From: a virus
Lineage: Duplodnaviria; Caudoviricetes
DNA: 57,563 nucleotides
IMG/VR virus record: IMGVR_UViG_3300027736_000054
Location: 1 to 57,563 of that record
Strand: one strand, 5' to 3'
Shown here in pieces: positions 6,275-18,508 of this stretch (positions are counted from its first letter, which is position 1; every line of letters begins with the position of its first letter). Under the pieces are notes generated by a model. It searched no databases and was not told the DNA's origin. It saw nothing but the letters and a program-made list of their open reading frames with translations. The position numbers and the translations under genes were made by a program.

Positions 6275-6562
6275 TCATACACAGTTTTTTAGCAATGCCA
6301 ATGCCTCATCTACGTTATTAACTACGGCCAACATACCGCCTTCCCAATTATCAAAAAAATTTTTCTCTGCTGGTGTTAGCGTTCTAGCCGATGGCGGTTT
6401 GTTTCCGTCTTTAATTTCAAGCAATAAGGTAAAACCCCTATAGCCCACTAATAAATCAGGTATGCCATCGCCCTGACTAATTATGCGTACATAAGCACCA
6501 CACGCCCGTAACGCATTAACTATTTCATTTTGGTTCTCATCAATCCTGTTGGCTCTTCTCAT
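6275..6562 (-). CDS. VRR-NUC-like / Holliday junction resolvase-like PD-(D/E)XK nuclease
   Basis: MRRANRIDENQ...GIPDLLVG...LLEIKDG...LTPAE. True start is at 6562; the listed N-terminal extension runs into the promoter and array. Confidence 0.8.
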   Translation of the reverse strand: MRRANRIDENQNEIVNALRACGAYVRIISQGDGIPDLLVGYRGFTLLLEIKDGNKPPSARTLTPAEKNFFDNWEGGMLAVVNNVDEALALLKNCV

Positions 6563-6608
6563 GGTAACGTTTCCATCATAAGTATTTGTAGCAGTTATAA
6601 CATACCTA

Positions 6609-6637
6609 TTGACAACACACAATAAACCAGTTATAAT
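6609..6637 (+). promoter_or_regulatory. perfect sigma70 consensus promoter upstream of the GGY-NN array
   Basis: TTGACA 6609-6614, 17-bp spacer, TATAAT 6632-6637; the pentamer tract begins ~16 nt downstream. Confidence 0.9.
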
Positions 6638-6652
6638 CCCATCACTTAGACC

Positions 6653-7761
6653 AGTTATGTATGGTCTGGTGCGGTTAGGCGGGGTAGGTTGAGGCAAGGT
6701 AGGCTGCGGGCTGACAACAGTCGATAGGTGATTAGCAATAGTCATCCTTCGAGTGAGGTGGGGTCAGGTGCGGTTAGGTGTGGTAAGTTTAGGTTTGGTG
6801 AGGCGAGGTAAGGGCTGACAACAGTCGATAGGTGATTAGCAATAGTCATCCTTCGAGTGGGATTTGGTACGGTAGGGTCGAGCGGGGTGAGGTCAGGTTG
6901 GGTGGGGTAAGGTCCGGTGCGGTATGGTAAGGAACTAGCAATAGTCGATGGGTGATTAGAAATAGTCATCTTTCGAGTGGGGTTAGGTTATGCTGGGTAA
7001 GGCAGGGTGCGGCGAGGTATGGACTGACAACAGTCGATAGGCAATTCAATGAGTTGCTCTTCGAGTGTTCGGTAAGGTAAGGTACGGTAAGGCGAGGTCT
7101 GGCGAGGTAGGGTATGGAAAGGTGCGGCTTGGTTTGGACTGATAACAGTCGGTTGAAGATTGGCAACAGTCTTTTTCCGAGTGTTTTGTTGGGGTAGGGT
7201 ACGGTAAGGCTAGGTCAGGTTTGGTCGGGTAGGGCGTGGAACTAGTAATAGTCGATAGGACATTTTCACAAGTGTCTCTTCGAGTATTGAATTCGGTGCG
7301 GTGGGGTGGGGTCGGGTATGGTTGGTTTGGGTTTTGTCGGGTTGGGTAATGTATGGGCTGACAACAGTCGATAGGGCATTAGAAATAGTGTTCCTTCGAG
7401 TGTTAATCAAATGGGGCTTGGTCGGGTTCGGACGGTTTGGTCGGGCGAGGCTGGGTGCGGTGCGGTGAAGTCAGGCACGGTTTGGCAAGGAACTAGCAAT
7501 AGTCGATAGGTGATTAGAAATAGTCATCCTTCGAGTACTGCGGTGAGGTGCGGCAAGGGACGGTTTGGTTAGGTGGGGTCGGGCGAGGTACGGTCGGGCA
7601 AGGCATGGAACTAGCAATAGTCGATAGGGTATTGGAAACAGTACCACTTCGAGTGGGGTTAGGTGCGGTGTGTTACGGCACGGTATGGAGAGGCGAGGTA
7701 TGGCAAGGTCAGGTATGGGCTAATGTAGCGGATAGGGTATTGGTAACAGTACCACTTCCGA
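6653..7761 (+). ncRNA. array of 10 putative guide RNAs: GGY-NN pentamer tracts each closed by a structured two-hairpin repeat (VIPR-like RNA array)
   Basis: Repeats at 6708-6754, 6812-6858, 6931-6978, 7021-7066, 7136-7182, 7238-7285, 7355-7401, 7489-7536, 7607-7654 and 7717-7761. The tracts between them have 5-nt GGY-NN periodicity. Stems covary, with GNRA loops and G-U pairs valid on the + strand. Confidence 0.88.
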
Positions 7762-7788
7762 TGCAACGGTGCATCAATTAACTTTTTT
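7760..7788 (+). terminator. hairpin plus U-tract closing the array (possible weak terminator or processing site)
   Basis: GATGCA-ACGG-TGCATC (7760-7775), then T6 at 7783-7788, just before the RBS AGGA and ATG 7798. Confidence 0.4.
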
Positions 7789-7797
7789 AGGAAAACT

Positions 7798-8364
7798 ATG
7801 AAACAACTTTCAATCAAAATCAACGGCACGGCTCCATTACTTATGCACTCAGATAGGTTTGCAGACCCGCTCAATCCATTAACCAAGGCGCACAAAGAGT
7901 TAACCGGCAAGCGCAAGAAGACAGATGATGATTTAATTGCCATTGCTAAAAGTGAATTTATTGGTAGCTGCTATTGGAATAACTCTGTTGGCTTTCATCT
8001 GCCATCACAAATGTTGGAAAGCTGTTTAATTAATGGCGCAAAACTTCAAAAACTTGGCACTAAATTTAAACAAAGTGTACGGGTGCTTGAAGATGAACTT
8101 CCATTGGTTGGTTACACCAAAACAAATCCCGAAAAACTTTGGGACAACCCTGAGATGCGTGACGCACGAGGCGTAAGAGTTGGAACATCAAAGATTATTC
8201 GTTACCGCCCAATCTTTAGACAATGGAGTTTGTCGGCCACAATCACAATTGACGAGGATGTTGTTAACGTCAACGAGGTTAAGAAAGCCATTGAAGATGC
8301 TGGGAAACTAATTGGCCTTGGGGATTACCGTCCACGTTTTGGTCGTTTTGAGGCAGTAATCTGA
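7798..8364 (+). CDS. RAMP/Cas7-like RNA-binding protein, putative effector of the adjacent array (Vipr-like)
   Basis: N-terminal strand LSIKINGTAPLLMH; FHLPSQMLESCLINGA resembling the RAMP IPgSslKG helix; C-terminal Gly-rich loop GLGDYRPRFGRF. Located immediately after the array. Confidence 0.75.
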   Translation: MKQLSIKINGTAPLLMHSDRFADPLNPLTKAHKELTGKRKKTDDDLIAIAKSEFIGSCYWNNSVGFHLPSQMLESCLINGAKLQKLGTKFKQSVRVLEDELPLVGYTKTNPEKLWDNPEMRDARGVRVGTSKIIRYRPIFRQWSLSATITIDEDVVNVNEVKKAIEDAGKLIGLGDYRPRFGRFEAVI

Positions 8365-8849
8365 TGGATACAACGCTTTACCCTGCATGGAAAGAGGCTG
8401 TTAAGCGGCTTCTTGATGGTGGCATGACCTACGGCAGTACGGTTAAGCGCAGTTATTTAATTGAATTGTGTGGAGTAGCGCCCCCCACTTCAATTGAAGA
8501 TGTGCGTAGATACGATTTGGAAGTGCTGAAGTGCATAACCGACATTAAAGATACGCTACTGACTGCTCACTGTATGTTGTTGGCAACCGACAATGCCGGT
8601 AGTTATGTTGTTATTGCGCCTGAATCTCAGACGCAATACGCCGTAGACAATGGTGTTAAGGCCATTACTAAAGAGATGAAGAAGATGGCAATGAATGTTA
8701 GCTTCACTAAGACGGCCTTACTTTCAGACCCGCAACGAGCAAAGAATGCTGATGCGCAAGCAAAGATTTCTATGTTGGCGGGGATGATGGGCAAGGAGAA
8801 TCGGGAACTTAAACGCTTGGCCGGAACAAGAAATGAAATTAACGAATAA
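8364..8849 (+). CDS. hypothetical protein, translationally coupled to the RAMP-like gene (putative accessory factor)
   Basis: TGATG overlap at 8362-8366; 161 aa, largely helical; no motif recognised. Confidence 0.75.
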   Translation: MDTTLYPAWKEAVKRLLDGGMTYGSTVKRSYLIELCGVAPPTSIEDVRRYDLEVLKCITDIKDTLLTAHCMLLATDNAGSYVVIAPESQTQYAVDNGVKAITKEMKKMAMNVSFTKTALLSDPQRAKNADAQAKISMLAGMMGKENRELKRLAGTRNEINE

Positions 8850-11918: not shown

Positions 11919-12190
11919 ACAACAAACTTACCGCCAAGGAGCGGGCGTATATAGGGCTGGTTAAAGAATTACCATGTTCTGTATGCAATGCATCAGGTCC
12001 ATCAGACGCACACCACATAGAACAGAAATTACAATTCTGTGTGGTGGCTTTGTGTAAAGATTGCCATCAGGGTTCTATGATGGGATGGCACGGACAAAAG
12101 CGGATGTGGAAGATTAAAAAGATGGACGAACTAGATGCCTTAGACGTTACTATTCAACGAGTGATGGAAACTTTAAAATCACTTCTTTAA
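11915..12190 (+). CDS. Ref/DUF968-like HNH-type Zn-binding nuclease
   Basis: LPCSVC...AHH...VALCKDCHQG; likely TTG start at 11915 overlapping the upstream stop. Confidence 0.65.
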   Translation: MNNKLTAKERAYIGLVKELPCSVCNASGPSDAHHIEQKLQFCVVALCKDCHQGSMMGWHGQKRMWKIKKMDELDALDVTIQRVMETLKSLL

Positions 12191-15100
12191 AGACTTTCTA
12201 AGCGATTCTGTTTGCTCGGCCACCATAGAAATTAATTCTTTCATGCGGTCAATTTCTTTTCTTTTGGCCGCACCATCCATTGTCTTGTCATTTGTAATAA
12301 CGCTAATCTGCTGCCTGATTTGCGCCATAACTTTAGATTGGCGGTCATAGGTTTTAGCCAGTGCTATTTTGTCTCCCTTTTCACGCATGATTTTTATGAC
12401 TTTTTCTGTGTCGCCAATGGCGGCATAATGCCTCATGTCAGCCATTGCTTGACTAATCTCTTTGTTGCTCTCGTAGAAAGCCGTGGCAAATTTAGACTGG
12501 TTAGATGGTAAAGATTTAACAAGACCCACACTAGCCCTGTCTACCCACTTGCTATCGGGATAAGCCCCTTCTTTAAACGGCATAACCGCATAGTGAGAGG
12601 TCTCAGCAATAGCACTTCCAAGCCAACCAAAATAAGCCTTGATTGCGTAATCCATTTGCACCGGTGACATTCCCTCGCCAGTAAACGGCATGACGCTAGA
12701 AAGGCCGCCAAGGGCTATAGCAAGCGGGCTAGTAGTATCGGTTGTGCGCTCCTGTTTAGACAGCCGCTCCAGACCAGCAGACTCAATAGGCGCACCAGTA
12801 AACGAATCTTTGTTGGCGTACAAATCTACCAATGGCTTGGCAATCTGAGGCAAGTTAACAGCAAATGTATCCGTTACCATGCGTTTCAAAGAATCTTCAA
12901 ATTGTTTGCCCTCTGCTTCTTTGTCAAAAACTTGTTCGGCTATACGTTCGGCCAAAGTTCCAAATGCACCAATTTCAAATGGTTTGGGTACACGCAAGGC
13001 GTAATCCATTCCGGGCAGTTTGAACCACCAGAAGTTATCCCTATCCCATTCGTCCCGTTTCTTAAATTCATCATCATCCTTAAACGCAAAGTACAGGGCC
13101 AAAGATGCAAGGCACACTGAGGCGGTAACGATGCTAAAAGAAGCGGCCTTCTGCTGGTCTGTCAGCTTCTGTCTTTCGCCCTTTTCAGTCAACTTTCCTT
13201 GCTCATCCACATCCCAAAGTGATTTGCCGGTTATGGTGTTGTAAGCAACCCTAGTGGTTGGGGTAATACCATCTCTGCCAAGTTTGTATAGTCCTTGTAC
13301 ACGAGCATTCAAGAATGGAATAACTTGGGCAACCTGACGAAACGCAGGCCACGAACCTGACATAGAAAAGTCCAACAAATCACGAGCATTAAACGATGCT
13401 TCAAGGTGGCTCATTCCCTTGTCTCTCATCTGAGTGTACAAAGCCATGCGGTTAGCAGACTCAGATTTATTGCCCCACTCTTGATACTTATCCCATGCTA
13501 TCTTCAAGCCTTCTTTAACTTTGACTGGGCTATCAAGAATGTGTTCTGGTTTAACGCCTTGCGCAACAAGACGCTTAATCATTTTTGCTTGGTCGCCCTC
13601 ATAGGTTGAGCCAAAGTTAAATATAGCGCCACCAGCAAGAGCAGATATATAGGCTGGTCTGTCTTTATTACTCTCAGCCCATCCATTAACAATGTTAGCA
13701 AATGGATTTTTCTTTAAATCACTAACGGCCATAGCAGATATGGAATCACGAATCAAGTTTCTAACTTTAAATGCAGGAGAAATAGTAACCCCGTATTGGA
13801 GCATATTCTTAAAGTCTCTTGCTACATCTAGGAATTTATTTGATGTACCCAAATACCCAATAGATGAAATAGAATCTAAAAGCATGGGGTCAAGAACGTT
13901 GTAATAAGCTGGACTTCCAGCTACCATTATTTTAACATTTATTTTGCCAGACTTGCCGGTTGCAGGAGTAGTCATCCAAGGTTCTATTTGACCATCCTTA
14001 TAAACCTCTGCATCTTCGTATATATTTCCATCCTCATCTTTCTTGCGAACAACAACATTTACTTTGTCATCAATCATTACAAACTGTTGTTTCAGGTTTG
14101 GCTCTGCGCCGCCCATAAGAATGGCTGCATCTATTGTGGCTTTGGCTGCTTGCGCCTTCATGGATGCGGAAAGTATATGACTCCAGTTACGCAAAGTGTT
14201 TTCCATCAAGTCGGCAAATGGACTTTCCCCGCCCTTTAATTCTTTAGAAAAATGTTGATTGGTCAGGCTAGATGCCGTCATCACCGCATCAATATCCCCG
14301 TCTTCCATCTCACGATAGAAAGGAATGTAGTTAATGTCGTTAACAAATCGCTCATATCCTATTGGGTCTTTGCGTAACTCATCAATTTTTTGTTGTAACT
14401 CTTCTATTTGCCTGTCTTTGGCGCCGTTGCTTAAACCTTCTTTGTTTTCTATGTAATCTATTTGCTCTTGGATTCTCTTAATCATATTGGCAGTTGAATC
14501 AATCAACCCCATCTCAAGAGCAACTTTAAGCACAGACTCATTTAATTTTTGCATATCTTTACGAACAGACTCGTAAAGTTCTTTGCGAGACTTACCATTC
14601 AAATCGCCTTTAATAAGCTCTTCTCTTTTGGCCACTAATTCAGGCATGATGTCTTTGCCATTTTTATCTATAAATCTAGACCGTTTATTGGCTGGTAAAT
14701 TAGCCTCCCTAGTCAATGCCTTCCACATATTAAATCGGTCAACCTCAACGCCTAAAGGCTTAAGTATTTCTAACAAACCTTTTGTATTTGGCTTAATGTT
14801 TAATGCTCCACCGTCATTAAATACCTCTCCATACATCATTAAGCCTTCAAGCACACCATCAACAGATTTGGATAAGCGGGCTAACATATATGCAACAGGG
14901 CTGTATTCTTTGATGGTTCTAAACTGGTCAGCCATTCCTTGGGCCACTTTTTTCCAAAAACCGTCTCGCAACCCGTTAATGCGGTCAACAATTGTTTTCT
15001 TTTGTGGAGCAAAAACAGGTTGAGCATTGTTCATAAACTCAGGAGATACGCCATCAAATGATTCAGGCCTCAAAGGCTGTCTCTTTTGTAAAGAGGCATT

Positions 15101-18100
15101 AAACTTTCCTTTTATTTTTTCGCCTATGCCTTCTTCTTCGGCAACTTCTTTTGCGCTCTCAGGAGTTGATTTTGGTTTAACTGGCGCAACCGTTTTGCTT
15201 CCAATTTTGCCTATTGCTTTTTCCGTTACATCTGTGGATGTTTCTAACAAAGAATCGGCAGCCCTAACCACTGCATCCAAGGCGGTTTCATATTGAACAT
15301 CTAAACCAAGGAGTTTTCTAAATATTTCAACCATGCGTGTTAACGCATTGGTATTGCCAACCTTAATCGTGGTTAAATAATCTTGAAAGTTTGGGTCGGT
15401 TAATCCCCAAGCAACCAATTCTTTAACATTTTTAACGGTATTTGTATTGTAATTAGCAATGTATGTAAGAAATGGGTGTTGTTTACCAGCTTTTACATCT
15501 GCATCTATTTGTTTCTTTACTTTGTTAAGCACAACAGATAGGTCGTTAAATTCTTTGCCGTTGGCGCTCAATGCAGGAACGGTGGCGGCGTGTAATAACT
15601 CATGCAAAATAGTAATGTATCGAGTGCCGGTATTGCTATGGGCTTTGCCGTTTTTTAAACCAGCAAACTGAAAGTGTCCATAACTAAAATTAACCGCATA
15701 TCTAAATCTACCACGCCATCTAAGGTCATCTCTATTTAAAACAGCAACTGGTTTATTAAAAAAATTCCTAGCATCTAATTCTTTAATTCGAGCCAAAACT
15801 TTTTCAGCAATGGCTTTTGCTGCACTATTGGGCGCATTATCAACCGTCCATTGAGCAAGTTCTGTAGCTGTCATGCCTTTAATTTCTTTGGCAATCTGCT
15901 CCATAGGCTTTTTAATTTTAAAGTCTTTTGGTTCTGGTAAGTCTATTGGCGAATCGGGTTTAGTAAATAAATCAGGCGAACCTTCGGACTTTAAAGATTT
16001 AAACACATCAGACAAAGAAAGCTTGGGTTTTTCACCAAACATATCTTCGCCCGCCTGTGATTGGTCATAAGCAGCATCAGCCAAATTACCAATCAATTCG
16101 CCCATACGTTTGCCTGAGCGACTATTTTCAGCAAACATTTCCAATATTGCTAGTGTGTTGGGGTCTAATCCTATTTGACCTTGTGCTACAAAATCTGAGA
16201 GCTTCATGCCGCTACGTTTTGCAGTAACAGCCAACTCTGCCGCCTCAACAATGTTGGGACGAATATCGTACTCGCCAGCCCCCTCTAACTTAGAAACGTT
16301 TGAGGCCGACCTAGCTAGAGCTTGTAAAATTAACTTTGCTTCTGGGTCTGCCGCTTGTGCATACAGATTTATTAAACTATCGCTACCATATGCTTTGTAA
16401 AAAATGGCATTGTTTAGCCTATCAATAGCTTTGGTATTGGGTACGCCTTTGCTGTCAAGCAATTCGCCCTGTTCTTCTTTAGGCATACCTTTGACAAACT
16501 GAACCAATGATTGAGTGTTAACGCTGCCATCTTCGCCGTATTGAAGTCCAGACAAATCAAAGCGGTTTAGGTCATTCTTTGCCGCCTCTACTGGGTTAAG
16601 CCTTAACTGTCCAGCCACATTAGAAACATCGCCAATGTCGGACGTAACAAATGACTTAGGCATAATCCTAACCAACACAGGATTATCCATGTCTAATATT
16701 TGACCTTGTTCAATACCGTGCTGATTATCATTGGCCATTGCTGAACGATAGTCGCTTGCGGTATCGCTACCATAGGCGGCCTGTAGTCCTGCTATGCGAC
16801 CATTGCCTGCAACAGCACGAATTGCTTGAGTGGAAACGTTACCATAATCAGAGTTTGTTCTGCCATCTGCTGTGTGTGATGCAAGCAATTGACCGGCATC
16901 TATAACTGCGTATTGAACGGGAATCTTCCTGCCGTCAGAGGCAGTAGCCACATCTATCCTACCCAGTTGATTGTCCGGAATGGTCAAATCACTAATAACT
17001 ACAGGCGCACCAGACCCAAAATCAGGGGATGTTTTAAGTCGGTCGTAGTCAGGTTTAGATGCAATACCTTGCACTTGCTGAATAGATGCAGCCGTAGCAC
17101 GGTCACGGTTTTGCAACTTAGCAAATATATCTGCCGCATCATCAGGCAATCCTTGCGTGTAATTTTTTAACGCATCCAAATCTGGTTGTTTTATTTCTGC
17201 CTTGGCAGCGGGAGGCATTTTGAGAGTAGGTGGTTGAGAAACATCTGTTGATGGCGGAACAATTTCAGCAGGAGGAGCGGTATTTTCAACAGGTGGCGCA
17301 GCGGTTTGGGTATTAGGTTGATTTATTGATGCTTTAATTTCATCAACGGGTGGTTTAATAACTGTTGGTTCTTTTTCAATTGCGGCGGGTCGTTGAGCTA
17401 ATCCTGTAACACCACCCATACCAACACCACCAACCGCAGCCATACCAGCAGTTTGCCCTAAACCCTCAACCAAACTTTGTTCTGGTTTGACTTCACGCAC
17501 AGCAAGGTTTTCAGAAAACTTTCCTCCAACCTCTTCTGCTATTTCACTGGCACCCTCGCCTAAAGCGCCTTTAACTCCGCTTGCAACACGGCCAGTCAAA
17601 CCTCTTGCGGCAACTTTACCAACTTCTTTAGGTACACCAACCAATGCCTTTTCAATTGTTTGTGCGCCGGGTAATTTTTGAGCCAACAAAGAAAGGATTG
17701 CAGCCGATGCACCTGTAGCACGGGCTAGGTTTAACGCACCTTCAGCAGCCTCTTCGTCTGATGCGCCCTTTGATTTTAATTCTTTGTAAATGTTTTCATA
17801 AGCGCCAGCACCCACATCTGCGCCTTGCTGTACCGCTCCTGCGCCAACAGCCGATTTAACAGCCGTTTTTCCAGCAAGTTTTACCGCCTCTTCTGCAACC
17901 AATCCTTTGCCAGCAGAACGAGCTAAAGATATTGCCGCACCCGCCTTACCCGCTCCAAATGGAACTAGTAGTTGAGGCGCTTGCTCTGCCAAAAAGTTAA
18001 GAAGCAACGCAGGGTTTGTAATTGTTTCGCCAAATGCAGTGCCAAATGCAGCAAGCTGTCCCTTTTTTTCTGCCTCTGCTATCTTGGTTGCCCTGTCTTG

Positions 18101-18508
18101 TTCCATTTGTTTAAGTGCGGGAGACTTCATTTCCTCGCCGTACTCTTGCATTCGTTTGCCTACGCTCTTTTGACCTTCTAATATTGCCTGCCCTACGGGG
18201 CCTCCAGCAATAGCCATGCCTGCAATTTGTCTTGCTTTGTCAACATTAGTTTCTGCTGGTTTGCCCATATCGCCAGTAACCAAGCCATACAGTTGCCCCG
18301 GCAATTGAACCAAAGAGCCTGTGCCAGAAACAACACCAGCACCCACATCTTTAATTGCCTCGCCCCACGTTCTTTCTAAAGGTTTTGCTTGGACCTTTGG
18401 TCGTCTTGGTGCTAAGTCTGATGGTAAGTCGTCCTCTGGTACAGCCCTGCTCACTAGCCTTTCGGGAAGGTCGTCAAGAGGTACTGTTGCCATTATGCAT
18501 ACTCCCAC
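12179..18508 (-). CDS. large polyvalent virion/ejection protein (DdrB/ParB-like domain, HExxH zincin-like domain, LPD38-like C-terminus)
   Basis: 2109 aa; LQNRDR...AGNGRIAGLQAAY; ILHELLHAAT; C-terminal RDNFWWF..RVPKPFEIG; last gene of the structural operon. Confidence 0.75.
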   Translation of the reverse strand: MGVCIMATVPLDDLPERLVSRAVPEDDLPSDLAPRRPKVQAKPLERTWGEAIKDVGAGVVSGTGSLVQLPGQLYGLVTGDMGKPAETNVDKARQIAGMAIAGGPVGQAILEGQKSVGKRMQEYGEEMKSPALKQMEQDRATKIAEAEKKGQLAAFGTAFGETITNPALLLNFLAEQAPQLLVPFGAGKAGAAISLARSAGKGLVAEEAVKLAGKTAVKSAVGAGAVQQGADVGAGAYENIYKELKSKGASDEEAAEGALNLARATGASAAILSLLAQKLPGAQTIEKALVGVPKEVGKVAARGLTGRVASGVKGALGEGASEIAEEVGGKFSENLAVREVKPEQSLVEGLGQTAGMAAVGGVGMGGVTGLAQRPAAIEKEPTVIKPPVDEIKASINQPNTQTAAPPVENTAPPAEIVPPSTDVSQPPTLKMPPAAKAEIKQPDLDALKNYTQGLPDDAADIFAKLQNRDRATAASIQQVQGIASKPDYDRLKTSPDFGSGAPVVISDLTIPDNQLGRIDVATASDGRKIPVQYAVIDAGQLLASHTADGRTNSDYGNVSTQAIRAVAGNGRIAGLQAAYGSDTASDYRSAMANDNQHGIEQGQILDMDNPVLVRIMPKSFVTSDIGDVSNVAGQLRLNPVEAAKNDLNRFDLSGLQYGEDGSVNTQSLVQFVKGMPKEEQGELLDSKGVPNTKAIDRLNNAIFYKAYGSDSLINLYAQAADPEAKLILQALARSASNVSKLEGAGEYDIRPNIVEAAELAVTAKRSGMKLSDFVAQGQIGLDPNTLAILEMFAENSRSGKRMGELIGNLADAAYDQSQAGEDMFGEKPKLSLSDVFKSLKSEGSPDLFTKPDSPIDLPEPKDFKIKKPMEQIAKEIKGMTATELAQWTVDNAPNSAAKAIAEKVLARIKELDARNFFNKPVAVLNRDDLRWRGRFRYAVNFSYGHFQFAGLKNGKAHSNTGTRYITILHELLHAATVPALSANGKEFNDLSVVLNKVKKQIDADVKAGKQHPFLTYIANYNTNTVKNVKELVAWGLTDPNFQDYLTTIKVGNTNALTRMVEIFRKLLGLDVQYETALDAVVRAADSLLETSTDVTEKAIGKIGSKTVAPVKPKSTPESAKEVAEEEGIGEKIKGKFNASLQKRQPLRPESFDGVSPEFMNNAQPVFAPQKKTIVDRINGLRDGFWKKVAQGMADQFRTIKEYSPVAYMLARLSKSVDGVLEGLMMYGEVFNDGGALNIKPNTKGLLEILKPLGVEVDRFNMWKALTREANLPANKRSRFIDKNGKDIMPELVAKREELIKGDLNGKSRKELYESVRKDMQKLNESVLKVALEMGLIDSTANMIKRIQEQIDYIENKEGLSNGAKDRQIEELQQKIDELRKDPIGYERFVNDINYIPFYREMEDGDIDAVMTASSLTNQHFSKELKGGESPFADLMENTLRNWSHILSASMKAQAAKATIDAAILMGGAEPNLKQQFVMIDDKVNVVVRKKDEDGNIYEDAEVYKDGQIEPWMTTPATGKSGKINVKIMVAGSPAYYNVLDPMLLDSISSIGYLGTSNKFLDVARDFKNMLQYGVTISPAFKVRNLIRDSISAMAVSDLKKNPFANIVNGWAESNKDRPAYISALAGGAIFNFGSTYEGDQAKMIKRLVAQGVKPEHILDSPVKVKEGLKIAWDKYQEWGNKSESANRMALYTQMRDKGMSHLEASFNARDLLDFSMSGSWPAFRQVAQVIPFLNARVQGLYKLGRDGITPTTRVAYNTITGKSLWDVDEQGKLTEKGERQKLTDQQKAASFSIVTASVCLASLALYFAFKDDDEFKKRDEWDRDNFWWFKLPGMDYALRVPKPFEIGAFGTLAERIAEQVFDKEAEGKQFEDSLKRMVTDTFAVNLPQIAKPLVDLYANKDSFTGAPIESAGLERLSKQERTTDTTSPLAIALGGLSSVMPFTGEGMSPVQMDYAIKAYFGWLGSAIAETSHYAVMPFKEGAYPDSKWVDRASVGLVKSLPSNQSKFATAFYESNKEISQAMADMRHYAAIGDTEKVIKIMREKGDKIALAKTYDRQSKVMAQIRQQISVITNDKTMDGAAKRKEIDRMKELISMVAEQTESLRKSLKK

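What the first reader, a model, noticed from the sequence alone, without database searches (positions are those of the whole stretch)
6752..7488. A one-base-skip reading would place the gap on the codon wobble position
If each NN pairs two target bases and skips one, the target period is 3 nt. Read as codon positions 1-2, tract 2 could give EGQAYVKYLEEK, tract 5 KKTKELERIKALL and tract 8 LREWAAEHTLK, choosing among ambiguous residues. AA is the most frequent NN, while CC, TC and CT are rare. Such targeting would be blind to synonymous escape. Caveat: any NN string can be read as some peptide, so this is only suggestive. I saw no matching self-target in this window's proteins by eye.
Basis: inference. 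Interest (0 to 1): 0.7.

Follow-up and report, generated by a model that had tools for sequence, protein, structure and literature searches.

The report
Phage VIPR guides skip codon wobble

Summary
Window 6651-7763 (+) is an array of 10 units. Each unit is a tract of 9-16 NN-GGY pentamers followed by a conserved, covarying ~45-nt hairpin tail. The array sits behind a 12/12 sigma-70 promoter.

The next gene (7798-8364) matches the solved SUSP1 Vipr protein (PDB 36pp, E 4.8e-52). This is therefore a VIPR locus.

The one-base-skip, wobble-blind reading is the rule published in three 2026 bioRxiv preprints. I also confirmed it directly here.
- **Tract 8:** 14 consecutive NN (28/28 bases) match, in frame with the skipped base on codon position 3, the motif GFRSTFRDWAAE(H/Q)T of P4-type tyrosine integrases. 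This holds in 7 viral contigs, and 38 of 66 seed hits fall in that family.
- **Tract 5:** 11 NN match a VapE-like primase-helicase motif. This is tentative.
- **Tracts 2, 3, 6, 9 and 10:** only chance-level hits.
- **Self-targets:** none.

This scan has noted VIPR systems on other DNA before.

The parts
6609..6637 (+). Promoter of the guide array: TTGACA, 17-nt spacer, TATAAT
   Evidence: 12 of 12 consensus matches and the only promoter-like site in 6400-8000. It lies 14 nt upstream of the first pentamer units.
6661..6755 (+). vrRNA 1: tract of about 10 NN-GGY units (AT CT GC TA GG AG GA AA AG GC) plus 3' tail
   Evidence: No target search was run for this tract.
   Evidence: A 9-NN seed gave 0 hits in viral contigs. 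In metagenome contigs it gave 18 hits, best 22/24, with scattered codon phases, which is chance level.
6859..6979 (+). vrRNA 3: 15 units plus tail
   Evidence: The 8-NN seed gave 5 viral hits and none extended (best 21/30).
6979..7067 (+). vrRNA 4: 9 units plus tail (88-nt unit)
   Evidence: A contig in run X7 joins 6968 to 7057, skipping 88 nt, which is the length of one unit. No target search was run.
   Evidence: Eleven consecutive NN (AA AC AA GA CT GA AG AT AA GC TT) match codon positions 1-2 of NTKELESIKAF in ORFs of about 490 aa. This occurs in 18 viral contigs at 23/28, plus 2 variants at 22/28. Three of these ORFs were scanned against Pfam and all are VapE-like_dom, PF05272.
7191..7286 (+). 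vrRNA 6: 10 regular units (preceded by 2 degenerate GTT units from 7181) plus tail
   Evidence: The 8-NN seed gave 4 viral hits and none extended.
7293..7402 (+). vrRNA 7: 13 units plus tail
   Evidence: No target search was run. A 5-nt (one-unit) deletion at 7346 appears in a contig of run X4.
7413..7537 (+). vrRNA 8: 16 NN (GG TT CG TC AC TT CG GA TG GC GC GA CA AC TT AA) plus tail. The unit at 7428-7431 has GG only, with no Y.
   Evidence: NN 1-14 match codon positions 1-2 of GFRSTFRDWAAE(H/Q)T in P4-type tyrosine integrase genes. Seven contigs match 28/28 bases, and 38 of 66 seed hits score at least 26/32. One family ORF, from L242, has the Pfam domains Arm-DNA-bind_3, Phage_int_M and Phage_integrase.
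7540..7655 (+). vrRNA 9: 14 units plus tail
   Evidence: The 8-NN seed gave 8 viral hits and none extended (best 19/28).
7655..7763 (+). vrRNA 10: 13 units plus a divergent tail (GCTA-ATG-TAGC, ending TTCCGATG)
   Evidence: The 8-NN seed gave 14 viral hits and none extended (best 21/26).
7760..7790 (+). Terminator-like hairpin GATGCA-ACGG-TGCATC followed by a T-rich run
   Evidence: This is a consensus match only.
7798..8364 (+). vipr: 188-aa RAMP-type guide-binding protein
   Evidence: phmmer against PDB chain 36pp_D, 'SUSP1 Vipr protein': E 4.8e-52 over residues 1-186. The residues that the structure paper names for GGY and skip-base contacts align as follows: H17, K33, M72, R138 to R137, D177 to D176, W178 to Y177, R179 to R178. 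The protein hits phrog_4652 at E 2.7e-68, and tblastn finds 130 phage records.
8364..8849 (+). vap-like accessory gene (161 aa)
   Evidence: Its start overlaps the vipr stop. It is homologous to the gene directly downstream of vipr in Pseudomonas phage LESphi2 (28% identity, E 2e-24) and in Escherichia phage wV8 (22% identity, E 5e-9). It has no Pfam or PDB match. Its function is inferred only.

Best explanation
Window 6609-8849 is a VIPR (Viral Interference Programmable Repeat) locus of an uncultured freshwater phage. It consists of a strong promoter, an array of ten guide-RNA (vrRNA) genes of about 100 nt each, then vipr and a vap-like gene.

Each vrRNA is a tract of 9-16 pentamers followed by a structured 3' tail. 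By the published mechanism, which is inferred for this locus, one Vipr protomer binds per pentamer. The protomers sequester the GGY bases and present the NN dinucleotides. The NN pair with double-stranded DNA so that every third target base is skipped, and the bound filament represses transcription.

Because the target period is 3, a guide laid on a coding sequence reads codon positions 1-2 and ignores the wobble base. The guide therefore tolerates synonymous changes.

Shown here for this locus:
- The architecture of the array, promoter and two genes.
- Homology of the protein to the solved Vipr structure.
- An in-frame gap-1 match of guide 8 to the conserved active-site region of P4-type tyrosine integrases.
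- A weaker match of guide 5 to a VapE-like primase-helicase motif.

The likely role is to silence integrative elements, satellites or prophages that compete with this phage. That role is inferred by analogy with SUSP1, whose guide 4 targets a satellite's excision recombinase.
For: 1. **Vipr homology.** E 4.8e-52 over the full length against PDB 36pp, with the GGY-contact residues conserved.
2. **vap synteny.** The downstream gene is homologous to the vipr-adjacent gene in LESphi2 and wV8. Both of those phages carry GGY-NN tracts beside vipr.
3. **Guide architecture.** Ten tracts of 9-16 NN-GGY units, each with a tail. RNAalifold predicts 14 pairs in the tail, and 7 of them show compensatory changes. 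An invariant U.G pair makes sense only for RNA read from the + strand. The array has a 12/12 promoter.
4. **Gap-1 and wobble, guide 8.** The 8-NN seed gave 66 viral hits. In 38 of them the 8 NN not forced by the seed match at 10-13 of 16 bases. In the other 28 hits they match at 0-7 of 16, mean 4.3, where chance is 4. Seven contigs match 14 NN perfectly, and in all 38 the site translates in frame as HG[FWLMI]RS[TSA]FRDWAAE (one copy begins Y instead of H). Skipped bases vary (mean major-allele frequency 0.59) while free NN are 90% identical to the guide.
5. **Guide 5.** Eleven contiguous NN match a VapE-like motif in 20 of 64 seed hits.
6. **No self-target**, as the paper reports for its own loci.
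7. **NN composition.** NN usage in this window correlates with codon position 1-2 dinucleotide usage in the sense orientation (Spearman 0.76, p 0.0007). The other five phase/strand models give r of 0.42 or less.
8. **Population variation.** In other freshwater metagenomes the array varies by whole units, and single-base differences in tracts 2, 3 and the 3' end of tract 8 fall on NN or Y positions.
Against: - Five of the seven tracts searched (2, 3, 6, 9, 10) gave only chance-level hits. Tracts 1, 4 and 7 were not searched.
- I could not run equal searches at gaps 0, 2 and 3 in the big collections. The gap comparison in seven proviruses is circular, because those proviruses were chosen through gap-1 seeds.
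- The last two NN of guide 8 match the integrase family only at chance (0.24). No representative bacterial genome holds a 15-NN match or the full 3' 11-NN match. The true natural target and the host are therefore unknown.
- The matching proviruses have 53-65% G+C against 43.8% for this phage, so they are relatives of the target and not the target itself.
- The guide 5 match is no better by total count (7 of 12 free bases) than some unrelated hits. I estimate its contiguity at about p 0.04.
- Guide 8 has a 4-base unit that may impair Vipr binding.
- The compositional signal is weak in 173 tracts from other viral loci (0.01-0.02 bits per NN; Spearman 0.32-0.73 depending on the reference set).
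- Expression, processing and silencing were not observed for this locus.
Confidence: 0.9

Rival explanations
1. The tracts are periodic binding sites for a ring or filament protein, as in TRAP (trp RNA-binding attenuation protein; its sites are (G/U)AG-NN, about 11 copies). On this view the RNA acts as a sponge or regulator and the NN are inert spacers carrying no information.
For: Five of the seven tracts searched have no identifiable target.
Against: The adjacent protein is a Vipr homolog and not TRAP-like. The NN of tract 8 spell 14 consecutive codons of an integrase motif, which inert spacers would not do. Published experiments show that NN dictate the target.
Confidence: 0.03
2. The array is guide-like but uses a different pairing rule in this clade: contiguous NN, or 2-3 skipped bases. 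On this view the integrase match records how the guide arose, not how it pairs.
For: I could not run gap 0, 2 or 3 searches of the large collections. The papers mention alternative repeat formats in other VIPR types, and earlier notes of this scan describe such formats.
Against: The only family-level matches found are at gap 1. This Vipr conserves the SUSP1 residue K33, which contacts the backbone beside the single skipped base, and the thumb arginine R138. In the seven proviruses no tract exceeded shuffled guides at gaps 0, 2 or 3. That last test is weak because the proviruses were selected through gap-1 seeds.
Confidence: 0.03
3. The locus is a decaying or decoy array. Some or most guides, including guide 8 with its 4-base unit and the tracts with several degenerate GTT/TGT/AGT units, no longer work or serve to divert a rival's Vipr.
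For: Several tracts contain degenerate units. Guide 8 has one irregular unit. Array content differs between metagenome populations. The October 2026 preprint describes decoy and solo vrRNAs (abstract).
Against: vipr and vap are intact and lie directly downstream. The promoter is a perfect consensus match. The tails keep their pairing through compensatory changes. GG is conserved where NN varies.
Confidence: 0.05

Closest known systems
Type II VIPR systems of Escherichia phage SUSP1 and a Pseudomonas fulva prophage (bioRxiv 10.64898/2026.04.26.720920, 10.64898/2026.04.26.720927, 10.64898/2026.10.15.759431)
   Same: - A Vipr protein of about 190 aa, homologous along its full length to the solved SUSP1 Vipr.
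- A small downstream accessory gene homologous to the vipr-adjacent gene of a Felixounavirus.
- vrRNAs of 9-16 YNNGG repeats with a structured 3' tail.
- Gap-1 targets in coding sequence with the skipped base on the wobble position.
- A recombinase gene among the targets.
- No self-targets.
   Different: - All ten guides form one array upstream of vipr under a single promoter. SUSP1 has one guide upstream and three downstream.
- The phage is an uncultured freshwater phage whose capsid and terminase resemble those of Planktothrix, Pelagibacter and 'Gammaproteobacteria' phages, not an enterobacterial or Pseudomonas phage.
- Guide 8 covers 14 codons of a superfamily-wide catalytic motif, whereas the reported footprint is 18 bp conserved within one satellite family.
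- The type II assignment is my inference. I did not place this Vipr on the authors' tree.
Class 1 CRISPR-Cas effector complexes (Cas7 backbone, as in Cascade)
   Same: A RAMP-fold protein polymerises along a guide RNA. A thumb flips out bases at a fixed period, so the guide-target duplex is interrupted periodically. This is as stated in the VIPR papers.
   Different: There are no CRISPR repeats and no Rfam CRISPR match. The guide information is interleaved, with 2 of every 5 RNA bases informative, rather than 5 of 6. The target period is 3, not 6. The 29 larger ORFs scanned with PHROGs showed no other CRISPR-associated hit apart from a weak Cas4-like exonuclease match. No acquisition module is known.
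TRAP-RNA recognition in Bacillus (recalled, not tested here)
   Same: A fixed triplet plus a two-base spacer, repeated about 11 times, bound by a protein oligomer with one subunit per repeat.
   Different: In TRAP sites the spacers carry no information and the RNA is the regulated target. Here the spacers are the information and the RNA is a guide. The proteins are unrelated.

Membership tests
VIPR system | A Vipr (stand-alone RAMP-type) gene beside the repeat RNA genes | tested here: met
   Window 7798-8364 against PDB 36pp_D 'SUSP1 Vipr protein': E 4.8e-52 over residues 1-186 of 188. The gene starts 35 nt after the last tail.
VIPR system | Vipr residues that hold GGY and the skipped base (SUSP1 H17, K33, E71/M72, R138, D177, W178, R179) | tested here: met
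   Read from the phmmer alignment against the residues named. H17, K33, M72, R137, D176 and R178 are identical. W178 is replaced by Y177 and E71 by Q71.
VIPR system | vrRNAs made of 9-16 YNNGG (GGY/NN) repeats | tested here: met
   Ten tracts of 9-16 units. GG is nearly invariant, the third base is mostly T or C, and NN is variable.
VIPR system | A conserved, structured 3' tail after each tract | tested here: met
   The alignment of 10 tails gives 14 predicted pairs, 7 with compensatory changes. By eye, a first hairpin also covaries (CTG/CAG against CTA/TAG). Whether a pseudoknot forms as in SUSP1 was not resolved.
VIPR system | Targets follow the 1-nt skip rule | tested here: met
   Guide 8 has 14 NN perfect at gap 1 in 7 viral contigs, and 38 of 66 seed hits lie in one gene family. 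Guide 5 has 11 NN matching. The result is inconclusive for guides 2, 3, 6, 9 and 10, and guides 1, 4 and 7 were not tested. Other gaps were not searched in the collections.
VIPR system | The skipped base lies on the codon wobble position of coding targets | tested here: met
   All 38 integrase-family hits and all 20 VapE-family hits are in the sense frame with the skipped base at codon position 3. Hits that do not extend show mixed phases.
VIPR system | No self-targeting at 80% or more NN match | tested here: met
   The best gap-1 match outside the array is 20/28.
VIPR system | An accessory vap gene | tested here: inconclusive
   A conserved gene follows vipr here, in LESphi2 (E 2e-24) and in wV8 (E 5e-9). 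I could not compare it with the authors' named vap1, and it has no Pfam or PDB match.
VIPR system | vrRNAs are expressed, processed to about 100 nt, and co-purify with Vipr; the complex silences transcription | not testable with these tools
   No RNA run was available for this test. Unit lengths of 88-135 nt fit the expected size.
CRISPR array | Identical direct repeats separating unique, aperiodic spacers, with cas genes nearby | tested here: not met
   The variable parts are themselves 5-nt periodic. There is no Rfam CRISPR family match. Among the 29 larger ORFs scanned with PHROGs, no Cas protein appeared apart from a weak Cas4-like exonuclease hit.

The most novel reading that the evidence does not exclude
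Guide 8 may be a broad-spectrum guide. It spells 14 codons (42 bp) of the conserved active-site motif HGFRSTFRDWAAE(H/Q)T of P4-type tyrosine integrases (I recall this motif as box II). Because it ignores the wobble base, it matches integrase genes of many unrelated proviruses with 54-72% G+C. In 32 distinct sites the free NN are 90% identical to the guide, while the sites are only 72.5% identical to one another.

If such matches suffice for binding, one small RNA would immobilise whole classes of integrative elements and satellites at the level of a protein motif, beyond any single rival lineage. Together with guide 5 on a VapE-like primase-helicase motif, this would mean VIPR arrays evolve towards reverse-translated hallmark motifs of mobile elements.

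A side question is whether the single 4-base unit (GG without Y) inside guide 8 is tolerated by the Vipr filament.
Probability: 0.35. Interest if true: 0.55.

Novelty: new member of a known kind. Interest (0 to 1): 0.35.

Why it matters
That rule is already in three 2026 preprints, so it is not new.

What this window adds is an independent natural example outside the enterobacterial and Pseudomonas clades studied so far. It is a ten-guide array in a freshwater phage. One guide can be read directly as the active-site motif of tyrosine integrases, and another probably as a primase-helicase motif.

This supports the view that these systems are aimed at hallmark genes of competing mobile elements. 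It also suggests a simple way to predict targets: translate the NN string and look for conserved protein motifs.

Tried and rejected
- **First idea, a TRAP-like protein-binding RNA with inert NN.** Dropped once the adjacent gene matched Vipr and guide 8 spelled an integrase motif.
- **Database look-ups on the array itself.** Rfam at gathering thresholds gave 0 matches. tRNA scan gave 0. blastn of the array against 50,697 phage records gave no match.
- **Pseudomonas phage Medea1.** It has the closest Vipr-like protein by tblastn (54% identity), but my pattern found no GGY-NN tract within 4 kb on either side.
- **Gap-1 seed scans that led nowhere:**
  - Tract 2, 9 NN, viral: 0 hits.
  - Tract 2, 9 NN, metagenomes: 18 hits, best 22/24, mixed phases. 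At least 4 of 6 free bases matching is expected about 0.7 times among 18 hits.
  - Tract 9: 8 hits, best 19/28.
  - Tract 10: 14 hits, best 21/26.
  - Tract 3: 5 hits, best 21/30.
  - Tract 6: 4 hits, best 18/24.
- **Guide 8 in one genome per bacterial species.** The 15-NN pattern gave 0 hits and the 3' 11-NN pattern gave 0 hits. No host could be named.
- **Shared-element test.** I tested whether the guide 5 and guide 8 target families sit in the same proviruses. They do not (0 of 5 and, apart from weak 3-mismatch sites, none). No other tract matches seven fully fetched proviruses above shuffled guides.
- **Other T5 seed hits.** Of 24 ORFs scanned with Pfam, 2 were VapE-like. The remaining 22 either had no Pfam match or hit unrelated families.
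- **NN composition against codon usage in 173 tracts from other viral loci.** Only a weak preference for codon positions 1-2 in the sense orientation.
- **Convergent integrase or VapE guides in 183 tracts of other loci.** None found.
- **Expression.** No RNA holder was listed among 24 runs.
Full report
**What is there**

The window is a whole IMG/VR virus record of 57,563 bases, estimated 91% complete. Its genes are phage genes: terminase, portal, capsid, tail proteins, primase, helicase and Erf.

Between a minus-strand nuclease gene (6275-6562) and a plus-strand gene at 7798 lies a 1.1-kb non-coding array. It has ten units. Each unit is a tract of 9-16 five-base steps NN+GGY, followed by a conserved tail of about 45 nt that ends in TTCGAGTG.

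A perfect TTGACA-17-TATAAT promoter sits at 6609-6637, and a terminator-like hairpin sits at 7760-7775. No similar tract occurs elsewhere in the window. The ORFs that a mechanical list shows across the array are by-products of the repeat.

**The tails are RNA structures**

In an alignment of the ten tails, RNAalifold predicts 14 pairs, 7 of which keep pairing through changes on both sides. An invariant U.G pair fits only the + strand. By eye, a first small hairpin also covaries (CTG...CAG against CTA...TAG). It overlaps a second predicted helix between CAGTCGA and TTCGAGTG, so the fold is either alternative or knotted. I did not resolve this.

**Checking the observation**

So is the NN usage: AA 16 of 121, CC 1, TC 2, CT 2. 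No self-target reaches 80% at gap 1; the best is 20/28.

**What it is**

A full-text search for 'pentanucleotide repeats', 'phage' and 'noncoding RNA' found bioRxiv 10.64898/2026.04.26.720920. I read its Results, Discussion and Methods sections 18, 26 and 27, plus passages found by search.

That paper describes VIPR systems: a RAMP-type Vipr protein, an accessory vap gene, and vrRNAs of 9-16 YNNGG repeats with a conserved 3' tail. The NN pair with double-stranded DNA under a '1 nt skip rule'. Skip bases fall 'overwhelmingly' on the wobble position, which the authors say defeats synonymous escape.

Two companion preprints add detail.
- 10.64898/2026.04.26.720927 (abstract and sections 5-6) gives the structure. 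One protomer binds per repeat, GGY is sequestered, one target base is flipped into a pocket, and an R-loop triplex forms.
- 10.64898/2026.10.15.759431 (abstract and sections 6 and 17) shows SUSP1 guide 4 lying on a satellite's excision recombinase with codon periodicity.

A fourth preprint, 10.64898/2026.10.21.760802, I saw only in the search listing.

**Membership**

- The 188-aa product of 7798-8364 matches PDB 36pp 'SUSP1 Vipr protein' at E 4.8e-52 over residues 1-186.
- In that alignment the residues named for GGY and skip-base contacts are kept: H17, K33, M72, R138 to R137, D177 to D176, R179 to R178. W178 becomes Y177 and E71 becomes Q71.
- The next gene (8364-8849) has no Pfam or PDB match. 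It is homologous to the gene directly after vipr in Pseudomonas phage LESphi2 (E 2e-24) and in Felixounavirus wV8 (E 5e-9).
- Both of those phages carry GGY-NN tracts beside vipr: three upstream in LESphi2, and one on each side in wV8.
- I infer type II but did not place the protein on the authors' tree.

**Direct test of the gap-1 wobble rule here**

The collection scans take exact patterns only. I therefore used seeds of 8-9 consecutive NN at gap 1 and then scored the NN not forced by the seed.

Of the seven tracts tried, five gave only chance-level results.

| Tract | Collection | Hits | Best match |
|---|---|---|---|
| 2 | viral | 0 | none |
| 2 | metagenome | 18 | 22/24 |
| 9 | viral | 8 | 19/28 |
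| 10 | viral | 14 | 21/26 |
| 3 | viral | 5 | 21/30 |
| 6 | viral | 4 | 18/24 |

*Tract 8.* The seed gave 66 hits. I then noticed that five more NN lie upstream, across one 4-base unit, and scored all 16 NN. The hits split cleanly into two groups.
- In 38 hits the 16 free bases match at 10-13.
- In the other 28 hits they match at 0-7, mean 4.3, where chance is 4.

All 38 are in frame with the motif HG[FWLMI]RS[TSA]FRDWAAE (one copy begins Y instead of H) in ORFs of about 360 aa, mostly at provirus ends. One of them has the Pfam domains Arm-DNA-bind_3, Phage_int_M and Phage_integrase. Seven contigs match NN 1-14 perfectly, 28 of 28 bases.

Over the 38 sites (32 distinct), the free NN are 90% identical to the guide. 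The skipped bases are variable (mean major-allele frequency 0.59), and only the G of the Trp codon is fixed. NN 15-16 match at chance, 0.24.

*Tract 5.* The seed gave 64 hits. In 20 of them, ORFs of about 490 aa, 11 contiguous NN match NTKELESIKAF. Three of those ORFs were scanned with Pfam and all are VapE-like. Of the 24 ORFs scanned, the 22 that are not VapE-like had no Pfam match or hit unrelated families.

By total count this match (7 of 12 free bases) is no better than some unrelated hits. Only its contiguity stands out, at about p 0.04 by my estimate. I treat it as tentative.

**Codon phase of the skipped base**

Taking the longest open frame of at least 100 aa over each site:
- Tract 5: 44 of 64 hits are sense with the skip at position 3.
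- Tract 8: 43 of 66 are sense at position 3. Some GC-rich integrase sites are misassigned to spurious antisense frames, and by translation all 38 family sites are sense at position 3.
- Tract 9: 5 of 8 at position 3.
- Tract 10: 6 of 14.
- Tract 3: 0 of 5.
- Tract 6: 0 of 4.
- Tract 2, metagenome: 2 of 18.

Hits that do not extend are chance matches. Their phase reflects only that some NN strings have codon-like composition.

**Composition**

In this window NN usage correlates with codon position 1-2 dinucleotide usage in the sense orientation (Spearman 0.76, p 0.0007). It is best by 11 bits over the next of six phase/strand models.

In 173 unique tracts from 58 other viral loci the same model is best or tied, but by only 0.01-0.02 bits per NN. 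This supports the rule only weakly.

**What remains open**

- The proviruses that match have 53-65% G+C against 43.8% here. They carry homologues of the target and are not the target itself.
- The guide 5 and guide 8 families lie in different proviruses. No other guide matches seven fully fetched proviruses above shuffles.
- No representative bacterial genome has a 15-NN match or the full 3' match of guide 8.
- The host is unknown. Capsid and terminase relatives are phages of Planktothrix, Pelagibacter and an unnamed gammaproteobacterium. The DNA occurs in freshwater metagenomes.
- Equal searches at gaps 0, 2 and 3 could not be run in the collections.

**Variation in nature**

Contigs of four other runs laid on 6500-8400 show several kinds of difference.
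- Whole-unit differences: joints skipping 88 nt, the length of unit 4, and 219 nt, the combined length of units 5 and 6.
- A one-pentamer deletion at 7346.
- Other GGY-NN tracts attached to the same tails.
- Single-base differences in tracts 2 and 3 and at the 3' end of tract 8 that fall on NN positions (6766, 6780, 6885, 7482) or on the Y position (6883, 7486).

This is the pattern expected of a scaffold with free information positions. These are assembled contigs from mixed populations, so it is a hint only.

**Spread**

Many are multi-tract arrays with other linker designs. Earlier notes of this scan describe VIPR loci on other genomes.

**Verdict**

The thing is a VIPR locus, a new member of a known kind.

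The most novel reading still open is that guide 8 is a broad, protein-motif-level guide against P4-type integrases.

Noticed in passing
window 7428-7433: Inside guide 8, one unit has only GG between the NN 'TC' and 'AC', so one base of GGY is missing. The NN series nevertheless stays in register with the integrase codons on both sides. The missing base is either tolerated by the filament or is a recent damaging deletion. A contig in run X7 shows regular 5-base units here, but with different NN.
   Followed up: partly
window 6703-7764 (tails): RNAalifold pairs TTCGAGTG with CAGTCGA upstream, with compensatory changes in unit 10. That stretch overlaps the small first hairpin, which also covaries. 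The tail may therefore switch between two folds or form a knot.
   Followed up: partly
window 6500-8400 against runs X2, X3, X4, X7: The array content differs between freshwater populations. There are whole-unit deletions (88 nt and 219 nt), a one-pentamer deletion at 7346, and unknown tracts joined to the same tails.
   Followed up: partly
L039 1471-2650; L027 (minus strand) 1476-1923: Other viral contigs hold long GGT-NN arrays with different designs. L039 has 13 tracts separated by a linker of about 24 nt, and most of its tracts end in AA AA. L027 has tracts joined only by GGCTA-ATG.
   Followed up: no
last NN of each tract, e.g. window 7487-7488, 7605-7606, 7715-7716: The last NN before the tail is AA or AT in 7 of 10 tracts. 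The last two NN of guide 8 do not match its target family. The 3'-most units may belong to the handle and not to the guide.
   Followed up: partly
L326 2592-2906 (Pseudomonas phage LESphi2): Three GGC-NN tracts with CTGC...GCAG tails lie directly upstream of an unannotated vipr-vap pair, next to the cI/cro region of this clinical-strain prophage. The record calls both genes hypothetical.
   Followed up: partly
L002 (Pseudomonas phage Medea1): This phage has the closest Vipr-like protein in the phage collection (54% identity), but my pattern found no GGY-NN tract within 4 kb on either side. It may use another repeat format or guides placed elsewhere.
   Followed up: no
window 12179-18508 (minus strand): A 2109-aa ORF has partial similarity to virion RNA polymerase families (phrog_2206) and to large virion proteins of unknown function.
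   Followed up: no
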